Virus record (IMG/VR): IMGVR_UViG_3300045988_044010
Source: a virus
Length of the DNA stretch: 64,000 bases
Direction: 5' to 3' (one strand)
The position numbers and the translations under genes are program-made. Below, in pieces: positions 16,796 to 64,000 of the stretch (the stretch's first letter is position 1; every line of letters begins with the position of its first letter). The notes beneath the pieces are model-generated. The model did not search any database, had not been told where the DNA came from, and saw only the letters and a program-made list of their open reading frames with translations.

Positions 16796-17156
16796 GGCAG
16801 GATCTATAATAGCGTGGAAGAAGTATCCTTATATTAAGAAATTATGGAGTAAGATTAGAGGAAAACAGTTACCATTTAATATGTTTACTATAGTAACTAA
16901 CAGAACCGAACTACTTACTTCAGATTACATGAAAGATGTAGAGATATATGAACCAATACGCAAATATAGTAAACAAGAGCAATCTAAGATAAGTGTACTT
17001 GCGAGTGACACATTATATAGCAGTGATTGGGTAGATGTAGCAGCATTAATAAATATAATTAGACCTAATACGTTAAATGGTCCTATTACATTAGCTACAT
17101 GTAAATACTATAAGAAGGTTGAATGGCATGAGAAATTAGACGAGTATATATACTAA
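16770..17156 (+). CDS. hypothetical protein
   Basis: ORF track. Confidence 0.6.
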   Translation: MKMRSFLLEAGSIIAWKKYPYIKKLWSKIRGKQLPFNMFTIVTNRTELLTSDYMKDVEIYEPIRKYSKQEQSKISVLASDTLYSSDWVDVAALINIIRPNTLNGPITLATCKYYKKVEWHEKLDEYIY

Positions 17157-17325
17157 ACTAAGTAATAAGTACAACTTACCGTATCAAGTGGTTGAAGTAA
17201 TATGTAACAGCCCTTTCAAGTTTACTAATAAGGTAATAACAGAATTAGATCCTAAACCGGTTATGTTTGCTTACTTAGGAAAGTTCAAAATAAAGAAGAG
17301 ATATGAAGAAGAAGCGAAAAATTGA
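17128..17325 (+). CDS. hypothetical protein; first gene in the window carrying an in-frame TAG (17137-17139)
   Basis: MRN-TAG-TSIYTKLSNKYNLPYQVVEVICNSPFKFTNKVITELDPKPVMFAYLGKFKIKKRYEEEAKN. Without TAG read-through there is no start codon for the protein-like part. Confidence 0.55.
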
Positions 17326-17326
17326 T

Positions 17327-17725
17327 ATGTATGACCCTCAGATATATCCTAGGAAGCTATGGGTAGCTGTAGGACCAGAGGAGTTAGATGAACAGTTTAA
17401 GTTCTACTTAACAGATAAATCTGGGGTGATAGAAAACATAGATGAAGAGCTTGAGCAAGAAGGTATAGCAATGAGTACATATTCAGTAAGTAGAAAATCA
17501 GATGGATTGTATGGGTGTTTAGTATATGCTCCTAACTTAGAAGTAATTACAGACGATGCAATACCACATGAAGCAGTACATGTAGCTGACTATATGTATG
17601 AAGAATTAGGTGTACATGCTGTAGAATCATACTCTCAAGGAAATGAAAATTATGCTTACTTAGTTGGTTGGGCTGCTGGTTGCATCAGTAAAACTATAAT
17701 TAAAGAGAAACAAAATGATATCTGA
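17327..17725 (+). CDS. HExxH-motif (HEAVH) putative metallopeptidase-like protein
   Basis: ORF track frame, start trimmed to the ATG at 17327 just after the previous TGA. Motif: IPHEAVHVADYMYEELG. Confidence 0.6.
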   Translation: MYDPQIYPRKLWVAVGPEELDEQFKFYLTDKSGVIENIDEELEQEGIAMSTYSVSRKSDGLYGCLVYAPNLEVITDDAIPHEAVHVADYMYEELGVHAVESYSQGNENYAYLVGWAAGCISKTIIKEKQNDI

Positions 17726-18314
17726 TCATATATTTCAATGCATGAAAGAAGATAGTAGTGATTACTATCCTACTTCAGGATATAGAGTAATACCCGGAGT
17801 TAGAGAAGTTCCAATAGAGATAGCATATAAAACTCTTTATATATGTGATCTTATACATAAATATATAAACACACCGGATATTAAAATACTTAATAAATTA
17901 AAAGAAATGACACACGAAGAAAGCAAAAATATGTGGGAACTGGAGAAAAAGAACTCTAGACCAGAACTATTCACTAAACCAATGAAAAAGTTATATGATG
18001 TAGTTGAGAAATGTATTGAAGATGATATTATCAGATATGATGATTTCACAAGCGATATGATTGATGAACTTACTACAGTAATGGTAGAGAATGGTAAGAA
18101 AGAAGAAGAAACTACATTAGATAGAGCAGAACAAATTGATCAGATTTGCAATAATTTAACTAAAAAGTATGAACAGAAATATAATACCAGAGAGTCTGGA
18201 GTAGGAGCTACAGACGTACACACAGATAGTGCAGAAGTACAAGACACTGAAGGACTATGTGAATCCGAATGTGCCTCTACAGAGAGCGCTGACGATAGTA
18301 CAGAGATTGCATAA
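17715..18314 (+). CDS. hypothetical protein with acidic C-terminus
   Basis: ORF track. Confidence 0.65.
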   Translation: MISDHIFQCMKEDSSDYYPTSGYRVIPGVREVPIEIAYKTLYICDLIHKYINTPDIKILNKLKEMTHEESKNMWELEKKNSRPELFTKPMKKLYDVVEKCIEDDIIRYDDFTSDMIDELTTVMVENGKKEEETTLDRAEQIDQICNNLTKKYEQKYNTRESGVGATDVHTDSAEVQDTEGLCESECASTESADDSTEIA

Positions 18315-18690: not shown

Positions 18691-18990
18691 ATGGAAAAAG
18701 TACTAATAAATAAACGAGGAGAAGCGATATCATTTAACACTGAATCGAACTCTATTACTCCAATGATAGACAATATCACATGCAACTTATACTAGGCAGA
18801 TAAAGATGGTCAAGTTGTTACTAATAATGAAGTTATTGACGTTAAAAAAGGAGAATTTATACTATACTGCAGATTATGGTAGAAAGATAAATTTATAACA
18901 AAAACAGTAATTATATCTGATCCTACAACTACTTATGATTTGAACGAATGGTATAAAGAACTAAATAAACAGGATAATGAAACTATTTGA
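18691..18990 (+). CDS. hypothetical protein with two in-frame TAG codons
   Basis: ATG at 18691; TAGs at 18793 and about 18877; TGA at 18988. Fills an otherwise empty 290-nt gap and overlaps the next start by 14 nt. Confidence 0.55.
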
Positions 18991-19758: not shown

Positions 19759-19834
19759 TGCCCTATGGTGTAATGGTCAAGCACAAGAGGCTCTAACCCT
19801 CTTGGTCTGGGTTCGAATCCTAGTGGGGCTACCA
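19759..19834 (+). tRNA. amber suppressor tRNA, anticodon CUA (reads UAG), encoded CCA
   Basis: Hand-folded cloverleaf. Acceptor 19759-65/19824-30; D-arm GTGT/GCAC; anticodon stem AGAGG/CCTCT with loop CT-CTA-AC (CTA at 19793-95). T-arm CTGGG-TTCGAAT-CCTAG; A73; CCA at 19832-34. Confidence 0.85.
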
Positions 19835-19845: not shown

Positions 19846-20052
19846 ATGAGAGATCTAGTAAAGATAAACTATGACAAGAATAATCCAAAAGCAGTAGTAT
19901 GGATAGTCAAAGAAGAATATGACAAATAGAAGAAATACTATGAAGAAATGGAACGAAAATTCTTCAGAAAATACTGGTTTGGATTAGAAGAAGAAATATG
20001 TAAAGATTATCTCAAAGAATGTTTTGATTTAAAAAGAAGCTTAAAGTAGTGA
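19846..20052 (+). CDS. hypothetical protein with two in-frame TAGs
   Basis: MRDLVKINYDKNNPKAVVWIVKEEYDK-TAG-KKYYEEMERKFFRKYWFGLEEEICKDYLKECFDLKRSLK-TAG, then TGA. Confidence 0.5.
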
Positions 20053-20209
20053 AGTATGGCGCGCATACAACGTAACCTCCTAAGTCACTGACTATATAAG
20101 AAAGCTTATAGTTAACACAGCTCATGATGGACCTAATCGTAAGTAGGTGAGTTTAACAGAGTTCTCAGATAAACTGTAGTTTTAAACTAAGAGAATTATA
20201 ATCAATTTA

Positions 20210-22264
20210 ATGGTAGACTTCAATAAATAGATAAAAAATAGCAATAAGTTTAGACAGCCAGCCCTCAAGTTTTTGGAGACTGGCTCTTATTGTTAGTATC
20301 CCGCTGGTACGTCAGAGTACTTTAAATATTGGGATGAATAGATGGACAGATGTAAGTATGGTTATACTGCTGATGATGGAGATTTCATTAGTGGGTATAA
20401 CTATTTTTATTTAAACTTCTGTCCTATTCAAAGGATTATCTATACTACAATTACTAATCCAGACGGATCTACAACTACTAAGAAAACACGTGATTTGTAG
20501 TTCCCAGACTTCTATGACTATGACTATTACTTCTTCTTAGCAGTAGAAGATGCAGAAGAACAAAGTAAACACTTATGCGCACTAAAGAGTAGACGTAAGG
20601 GTTATTCGTATAAGAATGCAGCAATGGCATGTCGTAACTACTATCTATTCGCAGGTAGTAAAACATATATCTATGCTAGTAATAAGCAATATCTAACAGA
20701 GGATGGTATTCTTACTAAAGCATGGGACTATATGGACTTTATAGATAAGAATACAGCTTGGGGTAAGAAGAGATCTGTCAATACTTAGATGCGTAAACGT
20801 GCTGGTTTCTTTACTAAAGATGAATACGGCAATGAGGTTGAGAGCGGTTATAAATCAGAAATCATTGGTGTTACTCTAAAAGATAACCCAGATGTAGTTC
20901 GTGGTAAAGCTGGTAAACTTATTATATTTGAAGAGGCTGGTTCATTCTCTGAACTAGGTGCAGCATGGCAAATTGCTAGACCGTCTGTAGAACAGGATGG
21001 TATTGCGTTTGGTACAATGATTGCATTTGGTACAGGTGGTGATGAAGATAGTCACTTTGAAACACTGAAAGATATGTTCTATAATCCAGATGGTTATAAC
21101 TGTTTAGGATTTAAGAATATATGGGATGAAACTCCATCTGATAAACTATGTGGATTCTTTATTCCTCAGTATACTAATATGGACTTCCGTGATGAGAATG
21201 GTAAACGCGTTTACATGGATGATGATGGTAATACATTATATAAGAAGTCTGTAGAGTATATATTAGCTGAACGTAGAAAGGTAATAGAGAATGCTACTAA
21301 TTCAGTAGCAGTAGACCGTTATGTAGCTGAACACTGTATAACACCACAAGAAGCATGTTTGGAATTTGGTGGTAATATATTCCCTAAGAAAGAATTACAA
21401 GAACAATTAGCTAACATACGTATAAATAAACACCTAAGTAACCACAAATAGGTAGGAGATTTGATATGGGATGCTAATGGTTCTATTAAGTGGGTACTTA
21501 AGAAAACAGGTGATATTACACATTACCCATTGAAAAAAGACGATGACCCAACAGGATCTATAGTTATATGGGAACACCCTGTAAAGGATGCTCCTATTGG
21601 TTTATATATACTTGGGGTAGACCCATATGATCATGACTAGTCAGGTACTAATTCATTAGGCTCTACGTTCGTTTACAAGCGATTCTAGAGCTTTGAAAAC
21701 TATTATGATATAATTGTTGCTGAATACACTGGACGCCCTGCAACAGCAGAAGAATACTATGAAAATCTACGTAAATTAGCAGTTTATTATAATGGTAGAA
21801 TAATGTATGAAAATGAACGTAAAGGTTTATTTCCATACTTTACTGCTAAACATTGTGACTACTTACTTGCTGATCAACCTGACATTATATCTGATATTGT
21901 AGGTAATTCTAAAGTATAGAGAAAGAAAGGTTGCCATATGAATAAATAGATCAAGCAGTGGGGAGAAGGCTTGATTAAAGATTGGTTAAATGATGAACAA
22001 GCCCCCGGTAAAAAGAACCTACATAACATACTATCAGAGCCGCTATTAGAAGAACTTATAAGCTATAATGATACAGGAAACTTCGATAGAGTCATGGCGT
22101 TGATGCAGGTAATGATTTATAGAGAATAGCTCTATAATCTAAAGGTTAAAGAGAAGAAAAAAGAGAATAGAGATAGGGTCTTATTTGATGGACCAATCTT
22201 TACTCAAGAGTGGTATCATGACGATGATATCATTAATGATAATATAGAAGCATATATGTTTTAA
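20210..22264 (+). CDS. terL: terminase large subunit (684 codons, 11 in-frame TAG)
   Basis: One frame from the ATG at 20210 to the TAA at 22262. TAGs at 20228, 20294, 20339, 20498, 20786, 21449, 21638, 21686, 21917, 21947 and 22127. ATPase/nuclease-type segments: GKLIIFEEAG, GTGGDEDSHF, LGVDPYDHD. Confidence 0.85.
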
Positions 22265-22266
22265 CT

Positions 22267-24777
22267 ATGAAAAATATCAATCAATTTCCTATACAGAAAT
22301 TGCCAATGTCTAAGAAGACTCAAGACTGGAGAGAATCTTGTGTAGATTACATTATAGGTCACAGTCAAGGAGGTTCTAGGAATGGTAATACCAGAACTCG
22401 CAAGGAAGAGATGCAGACTTACTATGATCTTTACAATAGTATATACAATGAGAAAGATCTTAAGTATGTTACTAACCCATTTAAACAATAGGACGGTTTC
22501 CCTGCAATGGCTTAGGATTATAATATAATCAAGCCAAAGATAGACCTACTATTAGGTGAAGAAACCAAAAGACCTTTTAACTTTAAGGTAGTACGTACTA
22601 GTGAGATAGCAACTAGTGAGTTACAGGAAAAAGCTAAACAGATGTTGATGGACTATATTCAGGCTACCATCATGAGTAAACTAGGACCTGAAGAATAGGC
22701 TAGATACCAAGAAGCTTTGCAATCTGGTGAAATTATGCCACCAGAACAGATACAGAAATACATGAGTAAAGACTATAAGGATATTGCAGAGATTACTGCA
22801 TATCATAGTCTTATGTACTTAAAGAATAAACTCAATATTAATCATGAGTTCTTTAAAGGTTGGAAGGATGCATTAGTAGGAGGTGAAGAAATATACTATA
22901 TTGGTATAGTAAATGGAGAACCGTGTCTAGAACGTATCAATCCTATTTACTTTGATTATGACACTGAAACATCAGATTTAGAGTTTATTCATGAAGCACA
23001 ATGGTGTTGCTATGAAATGAATATGTCAGTAACTGAACTGTATGATAGACTGTATGATAAGATGACAGAGAAGCAGTTGAATGAGTTACTTGATATGATG
23101 AGTGATAGTGCTAAAGGAGGCATTAATCCTGAAGTAAGAAAAACATCATTAGATTATCCGCATATTAAAACTCATACTATTAATGGTTTTAGCTCTAACC
23201 CATTTGATGGAAGTGGAGATAATATCAAAGTATATCACGTATGTTGGAAGTCATTCAAGAAGATAGGGTTTGTTACTATAATTGATCCAGAAACAGGTAT
23301 GCCTGAAACATATGAAGTAGATGAAACATACAAAGAAACAGGTATGGAAATATCTGTTGAATGGAAATGGATCATTGAAACATGGGAAGGATATAGAGCT
23401 GGAGAAGATCTCTATATAGGCGTAGAACCTGTTGAATATCAATATGTATCATCTGATAATCCTAATGCACAAAGATTGCCTTATACTGGAGTAATATATA
23501 ATAATACTAACAGTAGACCAAGATCTTTAGTAAGTATGATGAAACCATTACAGTATATGTATATTGTACTTTGGTATCGTCTTGAACTTGCAATGGCTAG
23601 AGATAAGGGTAAGGTAGTTAATATGGATATTACTTAGATACCTAAATCTATGAATATAGATGTATCTAAATGGATGCATTATCTATCTGCACTTGGTGTT
23701 AACTTTATTAACCCATATGAAGAAGGTTGGGATATACCGGGTAGAGAAGGTGGTAAACCATCCCAGTTCAATCAAATAACGGCATTAGATCTTACTATGG
23801 CTAATACTATTAATCAGTATATTATGCTTATGGATAAGATTGAATCTATGTTATCTGAAATATCTGGAGTAAGTAAACAGCGTGAAGGTTCAATATCATC
23901 TAATGAGTTAGTAGGTAATGTAGAAAGATCAGTACAGCAATCAGCTCATATTACTGAACCTTGGTTCTGGACACATAATCAAGTAAAGAGAGAGTGTTTG
24001 AATATGCTACTGAATACAGCCAAATGGGCTTGGAAAGACGGTAGTAAGACTCATCTGCAGTATATATTAGATGACGCTACTAGAGCATTCTTAACACTAT
24101 CTGATAACTTCCCATATGAAGACTTTGATATATTTGTAGATGACTCTACTAAGAATCAACAGAATATTGAGTTCCTTAGAAGTCTTATTCAACCTGCTAT
24201 GCAAAATGGAGCTAGTTTACTCGATGTAGTAGAAATCTTTACTAATGATAATACTACTATGATTAGAAACAAACTTGAAGAGATTGAGCAGAAACGCATG
24301 GAGCAACAACAGGCTATGGAAGAAGCTCAAGCTCAAAGAGAACAACAGATGATTCAGATGCAAAATGAAGTTAAAGAAGAAGAGTTAATGATTAAAGAAG
24401 CAGAGATGGATCTTAAGAAATATGAGATAGATTCTAACAATGCAACTAAGATTACAGTAGCTCAACTTAATGCTTATAGAGGTGCAGAAGATATGGACCA
24501 AAACGATAATGGAATTCCAGATCCAATGGAGATAGCAGCCCAAGCATTAGCTGAAAGAAAACAAGCATCTGAAGAAGCTTCTAAGCAATTCGAATTCAAT
24601 GCTAAATTAAGAGAGCAGTAGATGAAGAAAGATATAGAAGAAAAGAAAGTAGCTTTAGAGAAACAGAAATTGCAATCTCAAAAGGAATTACAAAAGATGA
24701 AAGATGATGCAGCTTTAGAAAGAGAAAAACTGAAGGCTAAAACAGCATTAAAGAATAAAGTAGTAGGAGAGAAGTAA
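22267..24777 (+). CDS. portal protein (836 codons, at least 5 in-frame TAG)
   Basis: Track ORFs 22267, 22717 and 23650 share one frame and are separated only by TAG; terminal TAA at 24775. Directly downstream of terL, and the size is typical of a portal. Confidence 0.75.
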
Positions 24778-24778
24778 T

Positions 24779-25132
24779 ATGAAAGTAATACAGAATAAAT
24801 TGATACCATTTAAAGGTTATAAATATATCAATCTATTTGGTTTGATATTTACTAGAGATAAATCTAAAATAAGTGCTAAAAGCTACAATCATGAAAAAAT
24901 ACATTTAAAACAAATGTAGGAAATGCTGTGGTTACCATATTACTTATGGTATGGCATAGAGTATTGCATAATTGGATTGTGTAGATTCTTTGATAAATAG
25001 AGTACTAAATATCATGATGTTAGCTTTGAAGAGGAAGCTTACAACAACGAAGAAAACTATACATATCCAGAGACTAGAAAACACTATTCTTGGTTAAAAT
25101 ATTGTAAAATTAGAAGTTATAAGGAGGATTAA
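24779..25132 (+). CDS. HExxH-motif (HEKIH) small protein
   Basis: ATG at 24779, two in-frame TAGs, TAA at 25130. Motif: SYNHEKIHLKQ. Confidence 0.55.
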
Positions 25133-25198
25133 TTATGGCATGTAAAGGTGGAAAAAAGTCCAGCAAGGGCAAAGGTGGAAAGAAATAATTGAAAGATT

Positions 25199-25438
25199 AT
25201 GGATGCAAATAACATATTAGAAGAACTACGGACACTCTATCCTGAAGATCTAAATAAAGATTACAACTGTTACTGGTGGTGGACTTGTAATACAGATGGA
25301 TCCGCTTTAACTTACTATCTATTACTAAGAGATAAATTCATGGAAGGAGAGTACTCAGCTTGTCTCAGAGCTCATTCTTCAGATCCAGAGAGTTTAGTAA
25401 TGCTATTAAAGATGTATTTAGAAACATGTAAGTATTAA
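25199..25438 (+). CDS. hypothetical protein
   Basis: ORF track; no TAG. Confidence 0.6.
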   Translation: MDANNILEELRTLYPEDLNKDYNCYWWWTCNTDGSALTYYLLLRDKFMEGEYSACLRAHSSDPESLVMLLKMYLETCKY

Positions 25439-25439
25439 T

Positions 25440-26963
25440 ATGGACAGAAAAGCATTTAAATAGAGAATGCAGAGCTTAAAGTCTTACCGGGAGCAAAATC
25501 CCGGTAAAGGCTACTTAGATTGGAAAACTTCATTACCAGATAATTTGCAAGATGAGAGTAGCTATAATCTGTAGAGAGCATATGAACTTGGGTATGAACC
25601 AGAGTATGTTGAAGAAGATAGATCTTATCATTTACCAACTAGAGATCAAGAAACAGGAGAAATACTTAAGAAACCTTGGCATCCTACATTCTTAATAGGA
25701 TTACAAGAAGATGCTAAATTAGGTTATTATCCATAGACCATAAATGGTGTTACATATACTACTACATGGGAAGGTAATGAAAATCCTATTTATAAGTATG
25801 CAGATGGCGGTGAAGTACCTCCAACCAATAAACCTACTATAATTGAACCTATACCATATAAAGGTAAACTTTATAGTGATAGATATGGTAGAAAGTATAC
25901 TGAAGAACAAGTATATGATTACTATAATAATGGTACGGATGAGATTGATAGATTTACAGGTGGACCATTAGTTAGAGGTTTGAAACCATTATTGGATCTA
26001 GAGGATGCTGCTAACTTTACACCAGTAGGTGATGCAGTTGCTGCATATGATGTGTATGATGCTGTTAGTAATAGGGATTGGTCTGGAGCAGGTTTAGCTG
26101 CATTAGGGTTGGTTCCGTTTGTACCTAATATAGGAGAAGCTGTCTTTAAAAGTTCTAAGAAATTATCTAAATCTAAGAACTATATACCAAAAGTAAATCC
26201 TAATTATAAGTAGAGTGTTATAGATAAAGCTTTACGAGAAGAAAGTACATTCAGTAAAATACCTAATAATGTTACTGAGGAGATTATTGATCAGCGAAAC
26301 AGGACTTATGAACTTATGTAGGAGCCATATGCTAGAAATAGAGCTAAAGAAATTGATGCTTAGTACGGCACGGATTATCTTAAAGTCTATGATAGTATGT
26401 TAGATAAATATGTTAATATTGATGAGTACTTTAAATTACCTGATCCTCAATATAAGAAGATGGAGAGACCAACTATTGCAGCATAGGTTACTCCAGCAAA
26501 AGGTAATACAATGTATTTTAATAGAGACATGATAAAGGCTCCTGAAGATATACCTAGTAATGTTGTATTGCATGAAATGGGTCATCTGGTTGATGGTGCT
26601 GCTGGTATGAGTAATGAGTTCTTAAAGAAACTTGGGGATAAGAGTAAATTTATTCCATTTAACTAGGCTAAGCTTATGTATCCTACTATGACTAGAGAAG
26701 GATATAATAACATATTACAAGGAACTGAAATTAAAAGCTATATGAATCAGTTCAGAAATTATTTAAATCAGAATGGAAAATTACATAATGGCAATTATAC
26801 AGGCAGTTATAAAGGTTTAAAGAAAGAGATAATAGAAGCTCCTAAAGAGTCTTTCAATAATATCAAAGCAATATTTAATCTTTATAGAAGTCCTAAATTG
26901 TTCAATAAGGATTTTCAAATGATTCCTATAGTAAATAACAAAGATAACAGAGATATATCATGA
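25440..26963 (+). CDS. virion-associated protein with zinc-metallopeptidase motif HEMGH (507 codons, 8 in-frame TAG)
   Basis: Track ORFs 25980 and 26676 are in frame with the ATG at 25440. Motif NVVLHEMGHLVDG; hydrophobic segment WSGAGLAALGLVPFVPNIG. Confidence 0.65.
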
Positions 26964-53540: not shown

Positions 53541-53556
53541 TAGAAAGGAGGTAATT

Positions 53557-54000
53557 ATGTATCCTTTCTATAATCTAGGTTACGGTTTTCCTCGTAGAAA
53601 TGTATAGAGATTAGATAGAGCTGGTATACCTGTAGCACGTACAATATACGTGACTACAGATACCGAAGCTAATCAGGTTACTTATGGTCTGTGCCCATAC
53701 CAATGGAGACAATTGCCAAATGAAGGTATCTTACTGTTGAACGTACAGCACACTCCTTCAGCTAGTACTGCTGCGGATGCAGCTATCCTGATTGATCCTA
53801 CTCATACTACATCTTCTGTTAACACAGTAAGCAATGTATCTGCGGGAGGAAAACAATTGGTAAATGGTTCTGGTGATCAGATGGTTAATCAAGAAGTTAC
53901 TGTTGGAAATAAATATTTCGTATACTATAATAAGTGTAATGGAATATTCCAAGTAGTAAACCATATTGTTACTCCAGCTGCCCCAGCTCCAGCAGCTTAA
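53557..54000 (+). CDS. hypothetical protein
   Basis: ATG at 53557, preceded by AAAGGAGG, is in frame with track ORF 53650 through 1 TAG. Confidence 0.55.
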
Positions 54001-54015
54001 TAATAAGGGCTCTAT

Positions 54016-54609: not shown

Positions 54610-54623
54610 TACTAGCCTTTTTT
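54600..54623 (+). terminator. rho-independent terminator
   Basis: GGCTAGT-TAAT-ACTAGCC followed by TTTTTT. Confidence 0.75.
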
Positions 54624-54742
54624 CATTTATAGCCCCAAGAACAAACGCTATTAGTTCATATGGTCTATTGTATTACTTACTACGTAAAGTGGCTAGAAAC
54701 GCCTTAAAATACGTTATTATTATATTTAATAAATAATGCATT

Positions 54743-55399
54743 ATGAAATTAAACACATTGAATACTATTATTGATGATATTCTACTTGAATTGCGCAACA
54801 GTTCTATTGCCGAATCAGAACATATAAGTAGAATACAAATCGAGCAATGGATTCATAACTACAGAGCTATGTTAATTAAATAGGATATTGATAAAGGAAG
54901 AGATATCAATCCTATGTATGTGTAGACTCTGCCTTGTATTCATCTAGATCGTGTTGAGTGCACTCCCGGTCATATTGAATACGTAAGTAATATTGAATTA
55001 CCAAAGCTTATAGACTTTCACTTTAGAACTGGATTAGTATCTGTAAAAGATATGTTCGGCAATTTAATCTAGTTAGGAAGTGAAACTAAAAACAAATATC
55101 AAAAGTATAGAAAATATACATGCAAAGACTACATAGCATATCTGAAAGGTAACAGAATATATGTAGATGGAGGTAATCATCAGTTAGAATATATCGAGGC
55201 AGATGTTATATTAGAGAATCCAGCTGATGCAAATGAATGCTTTGATCCAGATATGCCTTATCCAGCACCAGCTCACATGATACCAACTATTAAAGATTTA
55301 ATCTTTAGTAAAGAGTTAAATATAATGCCAAAAATGCCTACTGATGAGACTAATAACTCTAGAGATGATATGTAGAACATTTATAAACAGCAGAAATGA
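54743..55399 (+). CDS. virion structural protein (function unassigned; 4 in-frame TAG)
   Basis: Hand-translated continuous frame from the ATG at 54743 to the TGA at 55397. No track ORF here because of the TAGs. Confidence 0.55.
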
Positions 55400-55845
55400 C
55401 ACACAGAAAATCTTACACAATAAGTGACTTCTATTAGTTCTACCTATCTAATATTGAAAGAGATACTGTATATGATATTGATTATAAAGTGTACAGACAA
55501 ATAATAGAAGACTATTTTAAATTTATAGCAGACTAGGTTATTGAACATAGTAGAGAATTTAAACTACCATGCAGATTGGGTAATCTAAGTATAGTGAAAC
55601 GTAGACCTAAGAACTTTGATAATAAGAGTCTAAGGATTGATTATCATGAAAGTGCTATACAAGGTAAAGCAGTATACTTTATCAACGAACATTCCAATTT
55701 TTTTAAATTCAGATTTTTGTGGTCAAAAAAAGACAGTCTTCTAAAAAATAAAACCAGATATTAGTTTGTTGCCACCAGAGCAAACAAGAGAAGATTAGCA
55801 CAAATAATAAAAAATAGAGAGCATGATTACGTGGAGATTCGCTGA
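55396..55845 (+). CDS. hypothetical protein (3 in-frame TAG)
   Basis: ATGA overlap with the previous gene; in frame with track ORF 55576. Confidence 0.5.
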
Positions 55846-56578
55846 TGTTAACAAATTACCTGAGGAATCTGGTATTTATATGATATTGAATATATTAAAC
55901 AATCATAAATACGTAGGTAGCACCAATAACTTTAAGAGAAGACTAACCAGACATCGCGGAGAATTACGTAAGGATAAACATCATTCCACTTACTTGTAGA
56001 GGGCGTATAATAAATATGGTGAAGACAAATTCATAATATATATACTAGAGAGATGTTAGCCTATAAAAGATACTTTGATATATTTAGAGTAGAAGTATTT
56101 GGATTTAAATCCAGAATATAATATCGAGAAAGTAGCAGATAGAAGATTTACTAAATAGGCAAAGATAAAAACAAATAAGGTAAAGCATCCAATACAACAA
56201 TATAGTTTAGACGGTAATTTTATCAGAGAATTTGACAGTATAACACAGGCAGCCAAATGGTGTGGAAATAAAAACAAACACCCTCAAATATCTTTGTGTT
56301 GTTAGGGTAAATTGATCCAAGCGTGCGGGTATCTATGGAAATATAAGAATGATGATAGAAGCATTATGCAAGTAACAAAACAACCTTGTGATAAAGGAAT
56401 AAAAGTTGATCAATTAGACATAAACGGGAACTATATTAAAACTTATGATAATATGAGAATAGCTGCAGAATCAAATGGATCAATACAAAATAGATCTGCT
56501 ATAAATAGAGTATGTAGAGGATAGAAGAAAACAGCTTTTGGGTATAAGTGGAGATACCATACAAATAATATATTATGA
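55823..56578 (+). CDS. GIY-YIG homing endonuclease (6 in-frame TAG)
   Basis: SGIYMILNILNNHKYVGSTNNFKRRLTRH...HHSTYL-TAG-RAYNKYGEDKF. The TAG sits where I-TevI has Gln (HSSIKLQRSFNKHG). Confidence 0.75.
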
Positions 56579-57486
56579 TAGACAATAATATGATATCATC
56601 TAAAGCAGTTATAGCCAAAATAATTGCTGATTTAGATTTAAAAGAAGATGAAGTTAAAATAACCGATATAAGAGAATATATTGGTGAGGCTATGGAAAAG
56701 ATAGGTGCTATATAGCAACTAGAACATAAAGTAGAAAATATTCCTGTAATAGGTTACTAGGCAAAGTTGCCATGTGATCTATACAGATTAAATTAGGTAG
56801 CATTTTCATTTGAGAATAGTTGTGGTTGGTTACCCATGAGAAAGGTTACCAACTCTTTTGGTGTTTATACCAAATGTGATAAATGCGATCCTAATATGAT
56901 AATTGGAGATAACGCTCTTATACCTTTGGTAAAGAATTTATACAACCTTATAGATGATAGGTCTGCATTAGATATCATTAACTCTGATCCTAACGTTAAA
57001 AAGACATTAAGTGCTTTAGTAAATCAATATACTATACCTAGTGTAAATGGTAGACTTATAGTAGGTAATCCAGCATCATTAAACGGATCATTACAATACT
57101 CTACTAAACCGGGGTATATTACAGTTAATGTTCCTTGTGGTTGGGTTAAGATATCTTATCATGCTATCATTACTGATGAAGATAGTATGCCTATGATACC
57201 TGACAATCCTTCTTATTTCGAAGCTATATTTTGGTATGTAGCTATGAAGTTATCTTATCCTAAGTATCTAAAAGGACAACTGAATCAAAACATATACTAT
57301 GATATGAAGAACTCATGGAACTTCTATCGTAGACAGGCTTACGCAGAAGCTATGATGCCGGGTGTAGATGAAATAGAATCTATCAAGAATGATTGGCATA
57401 AGTTATATACAGAGTTTGATGATCATGATACGTTCTTTGCTACTACTGGAGATGAACAAATAATATATAATTAGAATAGATTATGA
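56575..57486 (+). CDS. virion structural protein (function unassigned; 4 in-frame TAG)
   Basis: ATGA overlap; in frame with track ORF 56836; TGA at 57484. Confidence 0.6.
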
Positions 57487-60400
57487 CAAATACTTTACAA
57501 ACTAACAGTTTCGTAGGTGGTATGAATATGGATATTGATATTCATGCAATACCTGAGAATCAGTATAGATATGCTGAGAACATCAGAATCATTACTGATA
57601 CTGAAGGTACTAGTGGAGTATTGCAAAATATTTAGAATATTCGCCCAGTAGATGGTGGCGGATTTATATCAGATGATGAAACTGTATTATATGCTGTTAC
57701 TGTAGATAAGTATGCTGTTATTCTTACTGTAGATAGTAAAAACATAAATAGAGTATATAGAGTATCTGATTATAATAATCTACCTCTAAAGAACACTGTA
57801 ATAATAAAAGGTAAACTATAGTATGGTAAGTCTAATAGGGTTAAAATAGTAGCTAACTATGAGGCTGAGAATAATATTAAGATATACATAACAGATGGAA
57901 ATACTCCTATTAGAGTATTAAACATTATGGATAATAAGTATGTATATGAACCGGGTGTTACCAATGACTTGTTAGATAGTGAAGGCAATATTAAAGATCT
58001 AAGTATATTAGATTTAACTCCGAGTTCATTACTATCTCCTCCAAAAATAACAGAACTAGGCTCTGGTAATTTATCATCTGGTATTGTACAATATGTATAC
58101 CAATTATTTAATGTTAGAGGATCTAACACTATTATGTCTCCTTGTAGTGGTTTAGTGCATTTAACAGACAGTAATACTTCTAGTAGCCTAAATGAATATC
58201 ATGGGTTAGATAAAGAGGTATCTACAGGTAAGTCTGTTAAAATGACTATTGATCTGGTAGATAAAACTACAGGAATAAACTATAATAGTTATTATACTAA
58301 TTGTAGGATATTTAGGATATTTTATAATGATAACACGGCATTACCAACTATTGATGTTATTGCTGAAATTAAATCATCTAGTACAGCTACTAGTATTGAG
58401 TATGAAGATTTAGGTGGAACTCCAATTAATACTATTACTTTAGAAGAATTAAATTCTTTAACAAACAATTCATTTGTAGCTTCTACTATTGAGAAGAAAG
58501 ATAATAGATTATTTGCTGCTGGTATTAAAGAAAATACTTGGAGAACAGATTATGATGCTAGAGCTTATAGATGTACTAAGGAAGGGAGACTTATTCTTAA
58601 ATCTGCTAGCGGGTAGAATGATATTGATGTAATGCTACCAGAGTATGGTTCGCAAGCATGGAAGAATATATTATCAGATATAGATCCTGAACATGATTGC
58701 ATCAATCCCTATAACTCTGTAAAGGGATAGCCAACTGCTAACGATAATCTACAATATAGTAATAAGGTTGAAAGAGGTGCTAGAATATTAGGAGGTAGTG
58801 GTATAAATGTAAGCTATAGATTTGTTTATACTGAGCTTACTATGGATACCATGTAGTCTATGAATACATCTGCAACAGAAGGTCATGACTATGCTAAGAT
58901 TCAAGTACTCCCTCAGACTACATCTTCTATGACATTCTATTTCTTAGATGGACTGAAGGATACATCAATAAATCGTAGTATTCCAGAGTATTCTAGATAG
59001 ATGAATTATGCAGATCCATATATTGATGCTAATTTCAGAGGATATTAGAGAGATGAAATATATAGATTTGGTATTGTATTCTATAACAATAAGAGTATTC
59101 CATCTAATGTTAGTTGGATTGGAGATATTAGAATGCCTAACGCTCATGAGTACCCAACCTTCTTTGCAGGAGAAAATCTTATTGGTAAAGCATTAGGATT
59201 ACAATTTGAAGTATCTAATGTACCAGAAGAAGCAGTGGCGTACGAAATAGTAAGGTGTAGACGTACTATTGATGATAGAACTGTATTGATGCAAGGAGTT
59301 ATATCAGAGATAACCAACTATCCATATAAGTATATCAATAAAGGTGATGAACCAGATAATAGTTATAGACCTAGAATACCGCTTGGATACACAGATCAGG
59401 ACATACCTGTTAAGTATGCAAAAGCTTATCCTTATGGAGAACTAGGGGCTGAGCAATCCTCTATGTTCTATAATGATAGAGTTACAAAATACTATGTTAC
59501 ATTCATAAGCCCAGAACTAGATATAACAGGTGAAAGCTTGGTAGGCAAACTTAAGAATGCTCATGCTGAATTACTATATTATTTACACCCAATAGCTAGT
59601 AAAGGATACTGGTATAAAGCTACTGATAGTTCTAATGTATTTTCTAATAAATACTTTATAACTCCTAATAATACAAATTGGGGATTTTCTTCTGACAGAG
59701 TAACAGAATCAAAGCTCATAGGATGTTATAATAGTAGCATTAATGGATTTGTAATAGCATCTGAAGAATTTGGTACACATTAGACTGTACACTCTATATC
59801 AAACTTAATAGGCAAAAGATACATATTACATAATACTGCAATATCTGAAAATAGGTTAACTGTAGATATTAATAATAACTCTATATTTCCACCAATTATG
59901 GCTGGAGGAAATATTATGGCAGAAAAGATGCAGTACTATAGAACTATTGGTGATATTAATTATCTAAACTTAGGTCATATACACAACAGTGATGGCGATA
60001 ATAATGGTGCACGTAGAGCAGGACCATTTGGTTATTGCGCAGTATTGAATGGAGATTTTACTAAGATACCAAAGTTTCATAGAGTGGATGGTGTTATACA
60101 GGCTAACTACAACATAACAAGCGTAATAGGTTCTCAAGATATATTCTTGAATAAGGCTTGGTTTGAGTTACCAGTAGTAAACATAAAACTTAGTAATATA
60201 CCATATGGTGGGAATAGTTATATAGCTAGAACTAACTCTACATATATTAGTACTAACTCATTTACTACAGTAGGACCTAGTGGTGGTCAATCTTTAGTAT
60301 ATGGTGGCGATACTTTTATTGGTGTTCATGATCATAGGACTGCCAACGCATTCCCAGATCCGGGTGACGGAGATTATAGAGCATCATTAATTAGCTGTAC

Positions 60401-61649
60401 AGATTATATTCCAGTAGAAAGTAGTATTAATCTAGCATTGCAATATGGTGAAACTACTAGTCGTAGTTGTGAAGGTATGGATGATTATACTAACCCATAT
60501 TTAGGTACTACTATAGATGGGGGTACGTTGGGTAATTATAATAAATAGACTAAACCATACTATGCATATAATGATGCATATTCAGTTCAAGGTGATGCAA
60601 AGAAGTATGTTACAGAATCAGCTTATGCAATAACTAATGCTAATAATATAAATAGAATTGTATATTCACAAGCTAAGATTAATAATGAAGTAACGGATAG
60701 TTGGTTACAGTTTAAGTTTGCAGATTACTTAGATGTAGACAATCAGTATGGTAAGATAACCAATCTTAAGTCATTTAATGACAAACTGTTCTTCTGGCAA
60801 GATAGCGCATTTGGAGTAGCTTCTGTAAATGATAGATCACTTATTACTGATAACAATATTAGTGAACTTACTTTAGGTACTGGTGGTATATTGACAAGAT
60901 ACGATTATATTACTACTGGTAATGGGTCATCTGTTATAAACGACAATAGTATAACTAACTCTGACTTCGCATTATATTGGCATGATAGAGATAAAAATGA
61001 GTTATGCCAATTCTCTGATACTATACATAAGTTGTCTAAAGAGAAAGGAGTATAGACTTATTTGAATGCAAATCCTAACTTTGTAGTTCATGATTCATTC
61101 TATGATAATGAATTCAACGAAGTTAGATTCTGTTTCAATACTAAGACATTAGTATATAATGAATATACCCAAAGTTTTACTTCATTTTATACTGAAAATC
61201 CTACTAGTCACTTGAAATTTTCTGACAAGTTGTTATATATCAAAGACAATAAAGTGATGCAAACCGAAGATCGTGCGTTAAATGTAATGGAGTGTAAGAT
61301 ATAGTATATTATTAATAAAGATATACTATATACTAAGACATTTGACAATGTATTCTTTAGCGGTCAGTTTAGAGATATAAAGAATATGCTTACTGATGCT
61401 ACATTTAGAACTACAGATCAAGTAGGTACTATTACTTAGGATTATGTAAATGGTGGTTATGCTATAGATCATAGAGAAAATACATATAGATTTGCTATAG
61501 GCAGAGAATAGAATAGTGATGATACATTATCATATCCGGGCAGATTAAGAGGTAAGTACTTAATATGTGATCTTACTTTGAATTGTGGAGAACAACACAA
61601 CTTTACTCTCCCTAATATTAATACAACATATAGATACTCATTAGTATAA
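57483..61649 (+). CDS. large tail structural protein (1388 codons, about 14 in-frame TAG)
   Basis: Track ORFs 57927, 59133, 59898 and 61062 all share the frame of the ATG at 57483; TAA at 61647. Confidence 0.7.
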
Positions 61650-63838
61650 TGAAAAAAAAGAATAAGATAAATAAATACCAAACGGGCGGGTATAATTTTA
61701 ATAGTGATTATATAAAGTCAAGATACTAGAATATTACTAGTAATCCTTTGCGACCTATTAGTCCTGCAATGTCTGCACAAGTTCCATAGAAACTATCAGG
61801 AAATCCTATACAGACACAACCATATAATCCTAGTACAAGTACTAATATCATGGGAGTAGCTGGTAATATGATAAGTGGAGCAGGTGATATGTTAACTCTA
61901 GTAGGAGGTAATTCTAATGCTGCTACTGGAGGTGAGGCTGCTAAAGAATCTGTATAGAGTGTATTCAAGGGAGCTGCCACTGGAGCTAAAATGGGAGCTG
62001 AATTAGGACCTGTTGGAGCCGTTGTTGGTGGAATAGGTGGAGCTGTAGTTGGTTCCATAGGTAAAAGTGGTAAAGTACAAGTAAACGGATTCTATGAAGA
62101 TCCTACTCTTACATTAGGTACTGGATTTAAAGGAGCTGTATAGAACAAAGGTCTTAGAGAAAAGTACAGAAGAGAAAAAGAAAGAGTACTGGGTAATAGA
62201 TTTGCATTGCAAAATAGTGCATTATTGAATGCTGATTGGAATGAAACATATGATCAGTATGTAGATACTATGGCATATGGAGGTACTACTTCTAGTCTGG
62301 CTTATGTAGATGATGGTGAGCTTATTAATACTCCAGATGGTAACATATTAGAAGTACCAGAAGAAGGTAAACCTACAGATAGTAATTTAGTAAATATTCC
62401 GGAAGGCAGTAGAATATTAAGTGATACTTTGAAAGTGCCCGGAAGTAAAGAAACATTTGCACAAATGGGTAAAAGAATGATGTCTAAAAAGAAAAGTAAA
62501 GGCAAAGACAAATATGCTGAGAATTCAGCTAAATTGAATTAGATGAATGATCAAATGATTCATGATCAATTATTTAACCTACAAGAATCTATAAAGAGTT
62601 CTAAAAATCAATCTATAGACAAGTTTAAGGATGGTGGAACTAAACGAGGCTTCAGATATAGAGATAATTCTGGAAAAGAATATGATTATCAAATAGGTGA
62701 TACATTTGATTATAAAGGAAGAAAATATAAAGTAACAGATAGAAATAGTGCTGTACCATTAGATGACAAATACTCTGGTTTCAACGCAAACATGAATCCA
62801 GATAATATATTGACTTCTTTATATTAGACAGAAGGATTACCTATTAATTTGCCGAATGTAGATGCTTCAGCATCAGCCATTGCCGCCAATAGAATAGCTA
62901 GAAGACCTAGAGCAAAGATGGTAGATACTGTTAATAACGAATTAGATCTTAGTAATGAGGCTATAGATAGACTAGGAACAGAGAGAATACCTACAAGCTA
63001 CTCAGCGTCTCCCACTCGTAAAAGAACAGTATCAAGTGCTACTGCTGTACCTACTGCTACTAGATCTACTAGAACCAATGCAACTACTACTGATCTACCA
63101 CTAATAGATAATGCATTAGATTTAAGTGCAGAATACCCTTCTAGACTTGGACAGGAAACAATTTATACTACTCCTTCTACAGTATCATCTGAAGTACCAG
63201 AAGCAGGTTCTACAAGGAGCCCACGTATCAGAAATAGTTTTGATTGGAGAAAATTAGGTCAAGGATTGACAGATTTAGCAGCTTTAACTCCAGTATTATC
63301 TAACCTAGGAACTACCGCAGAAAGTTTTGATACAGTATATAATCCATACTCTAGTCAAATACTTAGTACTATGGCTGGTAGAAAATATGATATTACTCCA
63401 GCTAGAAGAGCTATCAGAGAGAACAGAGCTATATCAAACTACAATGCTTCTCAATCTAATACAAATACAGGAGCTAGTATGGCTTATAGATTACAAAGTC
63501 AGGTAGCTGCAGATAAAGCTATAGCAGATTTATATTCACAGAAGAGTAATATTGAGAATCAATATAAAGGAGAATACGCAAATACTCTCAATAACTTAGG
63601 ACAGCAATTTGTATCTGCTCGTAACATGTCTACTGATCTGAATGCTAGAAGTAGAGCAGCAGCTAGAAATATTAACAGAGAAGCTTTATCACAGATAAGT
63701 AACTACGCACAGAATAGAAGATTAATGAATAATCAAAAGTATAGAGATATGGCTATGTTGGATGCATACGCTCCTTTCTTAGAATCTATATATAAGACAG
63801 AAGATTATTCTAACTTAATGAGTAAATTTAGAAGATAA
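61649..63838 (+). CDS. virion internal/ejection-type protein candidate (729 codons, 6 in-frame TAG)
   Basis: Track ORFs 62207, 62543 and 62849 share the frame of the ATG at 61649. Gly-rich hydrophobic stretch: GAELGPVGAVVGGIGGAVVGSIG. Confidence 0.6.
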
Positions 63839-63839
63839 T

Positions 63840-64000
63840 ATGGCAGCAAATATGTACGATCAAGCCGCATAGGCTTAGTTTATTAATACTTATGCTCCAA
63901 TTAATTTTGGAGAATTGTTTAGAATTGGTGCAGCGCAGAAAGAAGAAATGGATAGAGCTGCCCAACAATTTGGAGCATAGTTATAGAAGTTTGGAGAATT
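63840..64000 (+). CDS. hypothetical protein, 5' end only (4 in-frame TAG already)
   Basis: MAANMYDQAA-TAG-A-TAG-FINTYAPINFGELFRIGAAQKEEMDRAAQQFGA-TAG-L-TAG-KFGEF, running off the window. Confidence 0.5.

What the first reader, a model, noticed from the sequence alone, without database searches (positions are those of the whole stretch)
17128..64000. TAG is a sense codon across the late module, with a sharp code boundary near 17.1 kb
**From 17137 onward.**
- Protein-like frames run straight through TAG. I count about 150 in-frame TAGs by hand.
- Examples: 11 in TerL, about 17 in fibre 1 and 8 in the 203-codon gene 51406.
- Reading TAG as sense merges every fragmented track ORF into compact genes with ATGA/TAATG junctions.
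- All roughly 45 genes there end in TAA or TGA, never TAG.

**Other parts of the window.**
- The minus-strand arm uses TAG as a true stop in 6 genes (3463, 5576, 6919, 9507, 9983, 12653). One of these is followed directly by an intrinsic terminator.
- The plus-strand block 13986-17127 has no in-frame TAG.

**Which amino acid.** Gln is supported by the GIY-YIG gene at 55823. Its HHSTYL-TAG-RAYNKYG aligns with I-TevI HSSIKLQRSFNKHG.

**TAG avoidance in abundant genes.** The MCP has 1 TAG and the abundant protein at 33663 has none.

Stop-codon reassignment is an established phenomenon in crAss-like and other gut phages. The value here is the precise boundary and the per-gene density map.
Basis: partly seen in the sequence, partly recalled or inferred. 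Interest (0 to 1): 0.7.

Follow-up and report, generated by a model that had tools for sequence, protein, structure and literature searches.

The report
Amber-to-glutamine recoding in crAss-like phage
This is a gut crAss-like phage that reads the stop codon TAG as glutamine in its late genes, using its own suppressor tRNA; this is a real but already well-documented trick, and the switch is a 2.7-kb transition zone, not a sharp line at 17.1 kb.

Summary
The core observation holds. Reading TAG as sense raises plus-strand ORF coverage of 17128-64000 from 0.57 to 0.93 (controls 0.58 and 0.63). That gives 46 compact genes with 144 in-frame TAGs, plus 4 in a cut last gene, all ending in TAA or TGA.

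TAG means glutamine. At orthologous codons in three relatives, window TAGs face TAG (57), CAA (31) or CAG (15) of 176. Gln beats every other amino acid by at least 140 lnL units. In cr50_1, whose TerL and portal have no in-frame stops, Gln faces 7 of 16 TAG sites.

The window is about 80% identical to Buchavirus (Suoliviridae), whose RefSeq records already carry full-length late genes and this tRNA. Late-gene TAG-to-Gln recoding in crAss-like phages is published and proteomically validated.

The "sharp boundary at 17.1 kb" is only partly right. 17137 is the first sense TAG, but 17128-19708 holds just 3 TAGs. The change-point is unresolved between 17.1 and 19.8 kb. Relatives carry a sense TAG further upstream. 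TAG stops end at the strand switch near 13 kb.

Verdict: real, correctly interpreted, already known.

The parts
1618..13126 (-). Leftward (early) arm: 25 complete small genes read in the standard code. Six end in TAG (3463, 5576, 6919, 9507, 9983, 12653) and none needs TAG as sense.
   Evidence: Treating TAG as sense changes coverage only from 0.509 to 0.519. Orthologous gene ends swap TAG with TAA/TGA at the same position.
12624..12643 (-). Terminator-like hairpin plus T-run, 10 nt after the TAG stop of gene 12653-12862.
13986..17156 (+). First part of the rightward block: 10 small genes including a GroES-like chaperonin (15440-15790) and a transcriptional regulator (16403-16795). TAG is used neither as sense nor as stop.
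   Evidence: 0 TAG in 984 codons, against 9.7 expected at the late rate (P 6e-5). Function names are by synteny with cr56_1.
17128..17325 (+). Conserved 65-codon gene whose codon 4 (17137-17139) is TAG. This is the first sense TAG in the window.
   Evidence: 85-91% identical to cr113_1 and cr56_1 with the TAG conserved. Homologues in cr6_1, cr50_1 and cr114_1 align from residue 5-6, and ATG 17128 is the only start codon upstream of that.
18691..18990 (+). 99-codon gene with two in-frame TAGs (18793, 18880). It is the maximum-likelihood position of the TAG-density step.
19759..19834 (+). Amber-suppressor tRNA: anticodon CUA, anticodon loop CU-CUA-AC, U1/U72 mismatch, A73, encoded CCA. It lies 375 nt upstream of TerL.
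   Evidence: ARAGORN; Rfam tRNA model 57 bits; sequence. A CUA tRNA occupies the same position in cr113_1, cr56_1, cr114_1 and cr6_1.
19846..64000 (+). Recoded late module: 39 complete genes with 141 in-frame TAGs (0.98 per 100 codons; 24% of all Gln codons), plus a cut last gene. All stops are TAA or TGA.
20210..22264 (+). Large terminase, 684 codons, 11 TAGs (high TAG share: 11 of 26 Gln codons).
22267..24777 (+). Portal protein, 836 codons, 5 TAGs (significantly low share: 5 of 55 Gln codons).
29268..30737 (+). Major head protein, 489 codons, 1 TAG.
33663..34643 (+). 326-codon conserved protein with no TAG (0 of 10 Gln codons). Function unknown.
   Evidence: no PHROG match.
35528..40981 (+). 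1817-codon tail or fibre-like protein, 17 TAGs.
   Evidence: synteny with cr56_1.
51406..52017 (+). Orthologue of the relatives' 'lysis regulatory protein-like (LysB/FtsL)' gene. Among genes with more than 10 Gln codons it has the highest TAG share (7 of 13 Gln codons), and it carries 4-6 TAGs in three relatives.
55823..56578 (+). GIY-YIG homing endonuclease, 6 TAGs. The first aligns with Gln of I-TevI.
63840..64000 (+). Start of a gene cut by the window end. It has 4 TAGs in 53 codons: two are conserved as TAG and two are CAG in cr56_1.

Best explanation
The window is about two thirds of the genome of a crAss-like phage (Crassvirales, Suoliviridae, close to genus Buchavirus) that uses two genetic codes in sequence.

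Early stage. The leftward arm is translated by the unmodified host machinery, where TAG terminates.

Transition. The rightward transcription unit opens with about 5.7 kb of small genes that almost entirely avoid TAG, so they can be read in either code. It then delivers a phage-encoded tRNA with anticodon CUA.

Late stage. Once this tRNA accumulates and is charged with glutamine, presumably by the host glutaminyl-tRNA synthetase, it out-competes release factor 1 at UAG. The packaging, head, tail and lysis genes downstream, which carry about one TAG per 100 codons, can then be translated in full. Before that point every one of them truncates, so the in-frame TAGs act as a translational lock that holds back late and lysis proteins.

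Shown here: the in-frame TAGs, their equivalence to Gln codons, TAG used as a stop in the early arm, the tRNA and its conserved position, and the family membership.

Inferred, not shown: that the tRNA is charged with Gln, that it is expressed before or together with the late genes, and that the purpose is timing control.
For: Coding test: coverage goes from 0.57 to 0.93 only when TAG is sense; no in-frame TAA or TGA; compact junctions.

Amino-acid test, read from DNA codons and so independent of any translation table. Window TAGs face TAG 57, CAA 31 and CAG 15 of 176 in cr113_1, cr56_1 and cr114_1, against backgrounds of 1.8% CAA and 0.9% CAG. Gln is best by 140 lnL units; in the reverse direction (relatives' TAG against window codons) by 214. 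Counting TAG as Gln brings the late-gene Gln content to 4.0%, from 3.0% without it; the early arm has 3.3%.

Homologues without in-frame stops: cr50_1 TerL and portal (66% identical) have Gln at 7 of 16 TAG sites (P 1e-5). Across six homologues, including the cultured phages crAss001, DAC17, Fpv3 and phi14:2, Q is 15 of 80 (P 9e-6), and the rest are mainly E, K and D. No TAG aligns with a protein end.

TAG is a stop in the early arm: window gene 8089 ends TAA where three relatives end TAG at the same residue; window gene 3463 ends TAG where relatives end TGA.

tRNA(CUA) at 19759-19834, and syntenic in four relatives.

Literature:
- Late-gene TAG-to-Gln recoding with suppressor tRNAs in crAss-like phages (PMC7886860).
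- Sup-CTA tRNA at the 5' end of the recoded strand, and dual-coded early genes (bioRxiv 10.1101/2022.06.29.495998).
- Lysis genes enriched in TAG (bioRxiv 10.1101/2021.08.26.457843).
- Peptides with Gln at TAG in two crAss-like phages (PMC9523058).
Against: The isotype of the tRNA cannot be read from its sequence. Its nearest ordinary tRNAs in crAss001 and DAC17 are Leu and Lys (0.72-0.74 identity), with Gln at 0.67.

CUA tRNAs at this locus differ strongly between relatives. One is 91 nt long with what looks like an extra arm, so charging specificity is an assumption.

No release-factor or aminoacyl-tRNA synthetase gene is seen in the window, and about one third of the genome is not in view.

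Three sense TAGs lie upstream of the tRNA gene (17137, 18793, 18880), so a strict 'tRNA first, TAG genes after' order does not hold.

The timing-lock function rests on gene order and the literature, not on expression data.
Confidence: 0.93

Rival explanations
1. TAG is read as sense but as an amino acid other than glutamine, for example Leu, Lys, Tyr or Ser, as the tRNA's overall sequence similarity or the long-armed cr113_1 tRNA might suggest.
For: The nearest ordinary tRNAs by sequence are Leu and Lys, not Gln. In I-TevI only 1 of the 3 aligned TAGs faces Gln.
Against: Gln wins the 20-way likelihood comparison by 140 and 214 lnL units. Glu comes next in both directions, then Lys or Ser. CAA/CAG are enriched about 14-fold opposite TAG. 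Gln is enriched at TAG sites in homologues without in-frame stops. Published peptides show Gln in related phages (PMC9523058).
Confidence: 0.02
2. The whole genome uses code 15, with TAG as Gln everywhere and no switch. The early-arm 'TAG stops' would then simply be read through. RefSeq annotates the relatives this way.
For: Relatives' records extend early genes past the TAG (for example, cr56_1 gene gp15 ends 5 codons after a TAG). Read-through tails are short (median 8 codons), so the difference is hard to see.
Against: No early-arm gene needs TAG as sense (coverage 0.509 against 0.519). TAG alternates with TAA/TGA at the exact orthologous C-terminus. One TAG stop is followed directly by a terminator hairpin. 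TAG stops are 6 of 25 on the early arm against 0 of 56 on the plus strand (P 5e-4). Proteomics of a related phage found no recoding in early proteins (PMC9523058).
Confidence: 0.03
3. UAG is only partly suppressed. The in-frame TAGs would act as leaky attenuators that set the yield of each protein (fewer TAGs meaning more protein), not as a clean switch of code.
For: TAG share differs between genes (chi-square P 0.0013). It is low in portal, and trends low in MCP and gene 33663 without reaching significance for either. It is high in TerL and the lysis-regulator-like gene. The host release factor 1 is presumably still present.
Against: Genes with 13-17 TAGs (35528, 42183, 57483) would yield almost nothing unless suppression per site is very efficient. 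The MCP and 33663 deficits are not individually significant. This is a refinement of the main explanation more than an alternative to it.
Confidence: 0.1
4. The TAGs are damage: pseudogenes, or assembly or sequencing errors in a defective genome.
For: None beyond the fragmented appearance under the standard code.
Against: Only TAG interrupts the frames, never TAA or TGA. 57 of 176 aligned sites are TAG in relatives too. The same pattern is seen in many independent genomes.
Confidence: 0.005

Closest known systems
Buchavirus and other Suoliviridae crAss-like phages (cr56_1 NC_055890, cr113_1 NC_055896, cr60_1, cr114_1, cr6_1)
   Same: About 80% nucleotide identity over TerL to MCP. Same gene order. 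A CUA tRNA immediately upstream of TerL. In-frame TAGs in the same late genes, 57 of them at identical codons. Early arm on the opposite strand with TAG stops and the same set of small RNAs.
   Different: A different genome at species level or above. The TAG sites turn over: about two thirds of aligned sites differ. The window has CAA where cr113_1 and cr56_1 have TAG in the regulator gene 16403. The window's tRNA is of a different sequence type from those of cr56_1, cr114_1 and cr113_1, and resembles that of cr130_1 (85%).
The two crAss-like phages in which TAG-to-Gln was shown by metaproteomics (Peters et al. 2022, PMC9523058)
   Same: Code 15 in structural genes, standard code in early genes, and a suppressor tRNA.
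   Different: No peptide data exist for this phage. I did not test how closely those two genomes (94 kb and 191 kb) are related to the window.
Multi-code phage genomes as segmented by Mgcod (Pfennig et al., bioRxiv 10.1101/2022.06.29.495998)
   Same: A block using code 11 next to a block using code 15. The switch is associated with the change of coding strand. The Sup-CTA tRNA lies toward the 5' end of the recoded strand. Early genes give nearly the same protein in either code.
   Different: Here the strand switch (about 13.1-14.0 kb) and the rise in sense TAGs (17.1-19.8 kb) are 3-6 kb apart, with a nearly TAG-free stretch between them.
Alternatively coded gut phages of Borges et al. (Lak, Agate, Jade and others; bioRxiv 10.1101/2021.08.26.457843)
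   Same: Recoding is confined to structural and lysis genes. A lysis-cassette gene is among the most heavily recoded (gene 51406 here; the spanin in their crAss-like set).
   Different: No release factor or tRNA synthetase gene is seen in this window, unlike some Lak, Agate and Jade phages.
Classical amber suppression by tRNA-Gln(CUA) (E. coli supE); from my own knowledge
   Same: A tRNA with anticodon CUA inserts Gln at UAG in competition with release factor 1.
   Different: supE is a weak host mutation. Here the tRNA is phage-borne, presumably highly expressed, and the genome has evolved to depend on it.

Membership tests
TAG-to-Gln (code 15) recoded crAss-like phage | In-frame TAG codons in conserved late genes (TerL, portal, MCP) that are restored to full length when TAG is read as sense | tested here: met
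   TerL 11, portal 5, MCP 1. Coverage rises from 0.57 to 0.93. Full-length alignment to TerL and portal of seven phages.
TAG-to-Gln (code 15) recoded crAss-like phage | TAG positions correspond to glutamine in homologues | tested here: met
   46 of 116 non-TAG aligned codons are CAA or CAG. Gln is best by 140 lnL units. Gln at 7 of 16 sites in cr50_1, whose TerL and portal have no in-frame stops.
TAG-to-Gln (code 15) recoded crAss-like phage | Phage-encoded suppressor tRNA with anticodon CUA | tested here: met
   19759-19834: ARAGORN and Rfam tRNA model at 57 bits. Syntenic in relatives.
TAG-to-Gln (code 15) recoded crAss-like phage | The suppressor tRNA is charged with glutamine | tested here: inconclusive
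   Sequence similarity does not identify the isotype. The U1/U72 mismatch and U35 are compatible with what I recall of GlnRS recognition, but that is recollection, not a test. It needs a biochemical assay.
TAG-to-Gln (code 15) recoded crAss-like phage | Gln detected at TAG positions in peptides | not testable with these tools
   Done for two other crAss-like phages (PMC9523058), not for this one.
Dual-code (11 + 15) genome architecture | Early block compatible with the standard code, with TAG functioning as a terminator | tested here: met
   6 of 25 early genes stop at TAG. Orthologous ends swap TAG with TAA/TGA.
Dual-code (11 + 15) genome architecture | The code switch coincides with the switch of coding strand | tested here: inconclusive
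   No plus-strand gene stops at TAG (0 of 56; but only 0 of 17 before the tRNA, P 0.066 against the early arm). Sense TAGs begin 3-6 kb after the strand switch.
Crassvirales, Suoliviridae (Buchavirus-like) | Sequence similarity and synteny of the TerL-portal-MCP module to classified members | tested here: met
   About 80% nucleotide identity to five Buchavirus genomes. TerL is 90-91% identical to cr113_1 and cr52_1. I did not compute the ICTV demarcation criteria, and the whole genome is not available.

The most novel reading that the evidence does not exclude
The most novel reading not excluded concerns the roughly 5.7 kb of rightward genes ahead of the suppressor tRNA. On this reading it is a deliberately TAG-free 'code-neutral' buffer, translated while the cell is changing codes. 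A few single-TAG genes (17128, 18691) would act as early sensors of suppression. The conserved permuted tmRNA-like RNA in the early arm (about 3970-4358) would belong to the same toolkit, rescuing ribosomes that run through host TAG stops once the suppressor is active.
Probability: 0.1. Interest if true: 0.55.

Novelty: already known. Interest (0 to 1): 0.17.

Why it matters
For annotation it matters a great deal. With the standard table, about 40% of the late module is lost or fragmented, while applying code 15 to the whole genome over-extends early genes that end in TAG. Scientifically this is one more example of a published strategy, not a new one: stop-codon recoding as a lock on late and lysis gene expression in abundant human-gut phages.

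The modest additions here are:
- a codon-level demonstration of Gln that does not depend on any translation table;
- evidence that the position of the first sense TAG differs between close relatives, so the code boundary is a zone and not a fixed point;
- evidence that the suppressor tRNA at this locus has been replaced or has diverged strongly within one phage family.

Tried and rejected
1. Backup stops. In the window, three of the six TAG-terminated early genes have a TAA or TGA within two codons. My first count of 4 of 7 (naive P 0.003) included an ORF later shown to be spurious. Pooled with three relatives and compared with extensions after TAA/TGA stops, there is no difference (35% against 25%, Fisher P 0.54; this pool still includes the spurious ORF). 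Rejected as an adaptation.

2. tRNA isotype from sequence similarity to the tRNA sets of crAss001 and DAC17. Uninformative: best matches were Leu and Lys at 0.72-0.74.

3. MFE folding of the tRNA alone gave a non-cloverleaf structure with z = -1.1. Single-sequence folding is not informative here, so I relied on ARAGORN and the Rfam model.

4. The large protein search with TerL listed only near-identical proteins (90% or more), probably recoded themselves, so it could not serve as an independent test. I replaced both with tblastn against annotated phages and alignment from DNA.

5. cr130_1 was meant as a standard-code comparator but is itself recoded (8 and 12 in-frame stops in TerL and portal). 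Dropped.

6. The sigma-70 promoter scan of 12.5-20.4 kb found fewer sites than shuffles (35 against 40), so it says nothing about transcription units. Terminator-like sites are enriched (11 against 2.5).

7. A seventh early TAG-stop ORF (939-1160) turned out to lie inside a longer ORF that runs off the window.

8. Avoidance of TAG stops in the 17 plus-strand genes ahead of the tRNA is only suggestive (0 of 17 against 6 of 25, P 0.066).

9. Literature searches for a tmRNA in crAss-like phages and for RAGATH or Hatchet RNAs in phages found nothing specific.

Full report
WHAT THE WINDOW IS

A megablast of 20000-44000 against annotated phage records finds crAss-like phages from human faeces. About half of the query is covered at roughly 80% identity by cr113_1, cr56_1, cr109_1 and cr60_1. 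These are classified as Crassvirales, Suoliviridae, Loutivirinae, genus Buchavirus. The gene order is the same: a leftward arm of small genes, a rightward block of small genes, a tRNA, then TerL, portal, head, tail and lysis genes. TerL is 90-91% identical in protein to cr113_1 and cr52_1. The closest public metagenome protein is 97% identical.

Yes. ORFs of at least 100 aa on the plus strand cover 57.2% of 17128-64000 under the standard code and 93.4% when TAG is sense. The control reassignments give 57.9% (TGA) and 62.6% (TAA). The same change does nothing on the leftward arm (50.9% against 51.9%).

With TAG as sense the region resolves into compact genes. The median gap is 2 nt, and 21 of 55 junctions overlap. 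I count 144 in-frame TAGs in 46 complete genes from 17128 on, plus 4 in the gene cut by the window end. TAA and TGA never occur in frame in these genes, although all three stop triplets are abundant in the other two frames.

Gene 51406 has 7 TAGs, not 8.

The six TAG-terminated genes on the minus strand are as listed, and the hairpin plus T-run after gene 12653 is there. A seventh that I called at first is spurious.

WHICH AMINO ACID?

I compared codons directly, so no translation table is involved. Window genes were aligned to their orthologues in cr113_1, cr56_1 and cr114_1 (64-69% amino-acid identity). Of 176 aligned window TAGs, 57 face TAG, 31 CAA and 15 CAG. The background frequencies are 1.8% for CAA and 0.9% for CAG. 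The next most common partners are GAA, AAA, ACT and AAG.

Using the substitution pattern of these same alignments, Gln is the best of the 20 amino acids by 140 lnL units. For the reverse comparison (relatives' TAGs against window codons) the margin is 214. The sites are counted once per relative and so are not independent, but the margin is very large.

As an independent test I aligned TerL and portal, with TAG masked as X, to homologues translated from DNA with the standard table. cr50_1 (66% identical, no in-frame stops in these two genes) has Gln at 7 of the 16 TAG positions (P 1e-5 against a 5.5% background). Across cr50_1, crAss001, cr116_1, Fpv3, phi14:2 and DAC17, Gln is 15 of 80 (P 9e-6), and the remainder are mostly E, K and D. 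No TAG coincides with a protein end.

The other two aligned TAGs there face Pro and Asn, so that example alone was weak.

Counting TAG as Gln brings the late-gene Gln content to 4.0%, from 3.0% without it. The early arm has 3.3%.

ARAGORN and the Rfam tRNA model (57 bits) find a tRNA with anticodon CUA at 19759-19834 on the plus strand, 375 nt upstream of TerL. It reads as a normal cloverleaf. The anticodon loop is CU-CUA-AC, there is a U1/U72 mismatch, the discriminator is A73, and the CCA end is encoded.

A CUA tRNA sits at the same place in cr113_1, cr56_1, cr114_1 and cr6_1, where RefSeq calls it tRNA-Gln.

Its isotype cannot be inferred from similarity to ordinary phage tRNAs. The CUA tRNAs of this phage group are also surprisingly diverse:
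- The window's tRNA is 85% identical to that of cr130_1, which shares the 1/72 mismatch.
- Those of cr56_1 and cr114_1 have a UGGGG...CCCCA acceptor stem.
- That of cr113_1 is 91 nt long, with what looks like a long extra arm.

That Gln is the residue inserted therefore rests on the codon comparisons and on published proteomics of other crAss-like phages (PMC9523058), not on the tRNA sequence.

TAG IS A REAL STOP ON THE LEFTWARD ARM

Orthologous early genes end at the same residue with different stop codons. Window gene 8089 ends TAA where cr60_1, cr113_1 and cr56_1 end TAG. Window genes 2610, 3008 and 3645 end TAA where one or two relatives end TAG. Window gene 3463 ends TAG where relatives end TGA.

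TAG stops are 6 of 25 on this arm against 0 of 56 on the plus strand (P 5e-4).

Read-through would add only short tails in five of the six cases. This agrees with the 'dual-coded' early genes described by Pfennig et al. A specific enrichment of backup stops did not survive a control.

WHERE IS THE BOUNDARY?

It is codon 4 of a 65-codon gene (17128-17325) that is 85-91% identical in cr113_1 and cr56_1, with the TAG conserved. Homologues in three more distant phages align from residue 5-6, and ATG 17128 is the only start codon upstream of that.

The picture, however, is a gradient and not a step at 17.1 kb:
- 13986-17127: 0 TAG in 984 codons.
- 17128-19708: 3 TAGs in 838 codons, and five of the seven genes have none.
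- After the tRNA: 141 TAGs in 14343 codons.

A two-rate change-point restricted to gene starts peaks at 18691. Starts at 17128, 18349, 19565 and 19846 are all within 2 lnL units of it.

cr114_1 has one at another codon of the same gene.

The end of TAG-as-stop coincides with the strand switch near 13.1-14.0 kb. For the 17 genes ahead of the tRNA this is only suggestive (P 0.066).

The transition therefore spans several kilobases and differs between close relatives.

DIFFERENCES BETWEEN GENES

TAG accounts for 24.5% of Gln codons in the late module, with significant heterogeneity between genes (chi-square P 0.0013).
- Low: portal (5 of 55) and gene 52686 (2 of 24).
- High: TerL (11 of 26), gene 27515 (5 of 9) and gene 51406 (7 of 13).
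- MCP (1 of 12) and gene 33663 (0 of 10) lean low but are not individually significant.

Gene 51406 is the orthologue of the relatives' 'lysis regulatory protein-like' gene, and it carries 4-6 in-frame TAGs in the three relatives with a match, at mostly different codons. This matches the report that the spanin family is the most TAG-biased in crAss-like phages (bioRxiv 10.1101/2021.08.26.457843).

COMPARISON WITH WHAT IS KNOWN

Each element is published:
- TAG-to-Gln in the late genes of crAss-like phages, with suppressor tRNAs (PMC7886860).
- Block structure with the switch near the strand change, the Sup-CTA tRNA at the 5' end of the recoded strand, and dual-coded early genes (bioRxiv 10.1101/2022.06.29.495998).
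- The timing and lysis-control hypothesis, and the TAG bias of lysis genes (bioRxiv 10.1101/2021.08.26.457843).
- Peptide evidence for Gln at TAG (PMC9523058).

The nearest RefSeq genomes are already annotated with full-length late genes and the tRNA. The finding is therefore correct but already known. Its claimed added value, a precise boundary, does not hold up.

I give 0.93 confidence to the explanation that a phage suppressor tRNA decodes late-gene TAG as Gln after an early phase in the standard code. The remaining uncertainty concerns charging, efficiency and purpose, none of which can be tested from sequence.

Noticed in passing
window 4853-4957, 6084-6240, 7889-8015, 10514-10724 (all minus strand): Four structured RNAs score above Rfam's curated thresholds in gaps between early genes: RAGATH-20, RAGATH-9, a Hatchet ribozyme and RAGATH-7. 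RAGATH-20, RAGATH-9 and Hatchet recur in the same order in the early arms of cr60_1, cr113_1 and cr56_1; RAGATH-7 recurs in cr60_1 and cr56_1. cr113_1 also has a sub-threshold twister-P1 match. No paper in the library links these RNAs to phages.
   Followed up: partly
window 3970-4358 (minus strand); Rfam match 4061-4325: Permuted (two-piece) tmRNA-like element. ARAGORN calls it with tag peptide GNTSYVMDYTRLVA, ending at UGA. Rfam's tmRNA_permuted model gives 41.2 bits (threshold 47), E 1.2e-6. cr60_1 has the same sub-threshold match, and relatives annotate a tmRNA here. It is the most conserved stretch of the early arm (85-92% identity to distant relatives). A ribosome-rescue RNA in a phage that changes stop-codon meaning may be worth a separate look.
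   Followed up: partly
window 48131-50685 (VR 49285-49377, TR 49443-49535, reverse transcriptase about 49650-50685): A diversity-generating retroelement. The C-terminus of the tail protein 48131-49399 (PHROG tail protein, E 1e-75) carries a 93-nt variable repeat. It is 77% identical to a template repeat upstream of a reverse transcriptase (PHROG E 1.7e-126). All 21 mismatches are at template adenines.
   Followed up: yes
window 30788-31417 versus 55823-56578: Two GIY-YIG homing endonuclease genes sit inside the late module. One has no TAG (0 of 5 Gln codons) and the other has 6 TAGs (6 of 15). The TAG-free one may be a recent arrival from a standard-code source, or may be expressed at a different time.
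   Followed up: no
L005:4345-4435 (cr113_1), L006:5092-5171 (cr56_1), L009:5455-5532 (cr114_1), L013:158-231 (cr130_1), window 19759-19834: The CUA suppressor tRNAs of related phages differ strongly in length (74-91 nt) and acceptor stem. In the four Suoliviridae relatives examined for synteny (cr113_1, cr56_1, cr114_1, cr6_1) they occupy the same locus just upstream of TerL; cr130_1's lies elsewhere on the same strand. cr113_1's appears to have a long extra arm. The window's and cr130_1's share a U1/U72 mismatch. This suggests repeated replacement or fast divergence of the suppressor.
   Followed up: partly
L020:3884-4282 (cr56_1 gp15) and other early genes of the RefSeq relatives: The RefSeq records of the relatives appear to have been translated with TAG as sense genome-wide. 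Early genes that really end at TAG are therefore annotated a few codons too long; in this example, 5 codons past the TAG.
   Followed up: partly
window 6412-7389 (minus strand): Gene 6919-7389 ends in TAG and is in the same frame as gene 6412-6825, with 31 stop-free codons between them. Once the suppressor is active, read-through would produce a fusion about 325 aa long. This could be chance: about 1 in 10 for 31 open codons, by my rough estimate.
   Followed up: no
window 1-1599 (minus strand): A long ORF of at least 519 codons runs off the left edge of the window, in a stretch with higher G+C (0.40 against about 0.33). It corresponds in position to the roughly 490-510-aa hypothetical protein next to the sigma-factor-like gene in relatives.
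   Followed up: no
window 15830-15855 (plus strand): A strong terminator-like hairpin (11 pairs) plus T-run follows the chaperonin-like gene, and a 203-nt gap comes after it. The rightward 'middle' block may therefore be more than one transcription unit.
   Followed up: no
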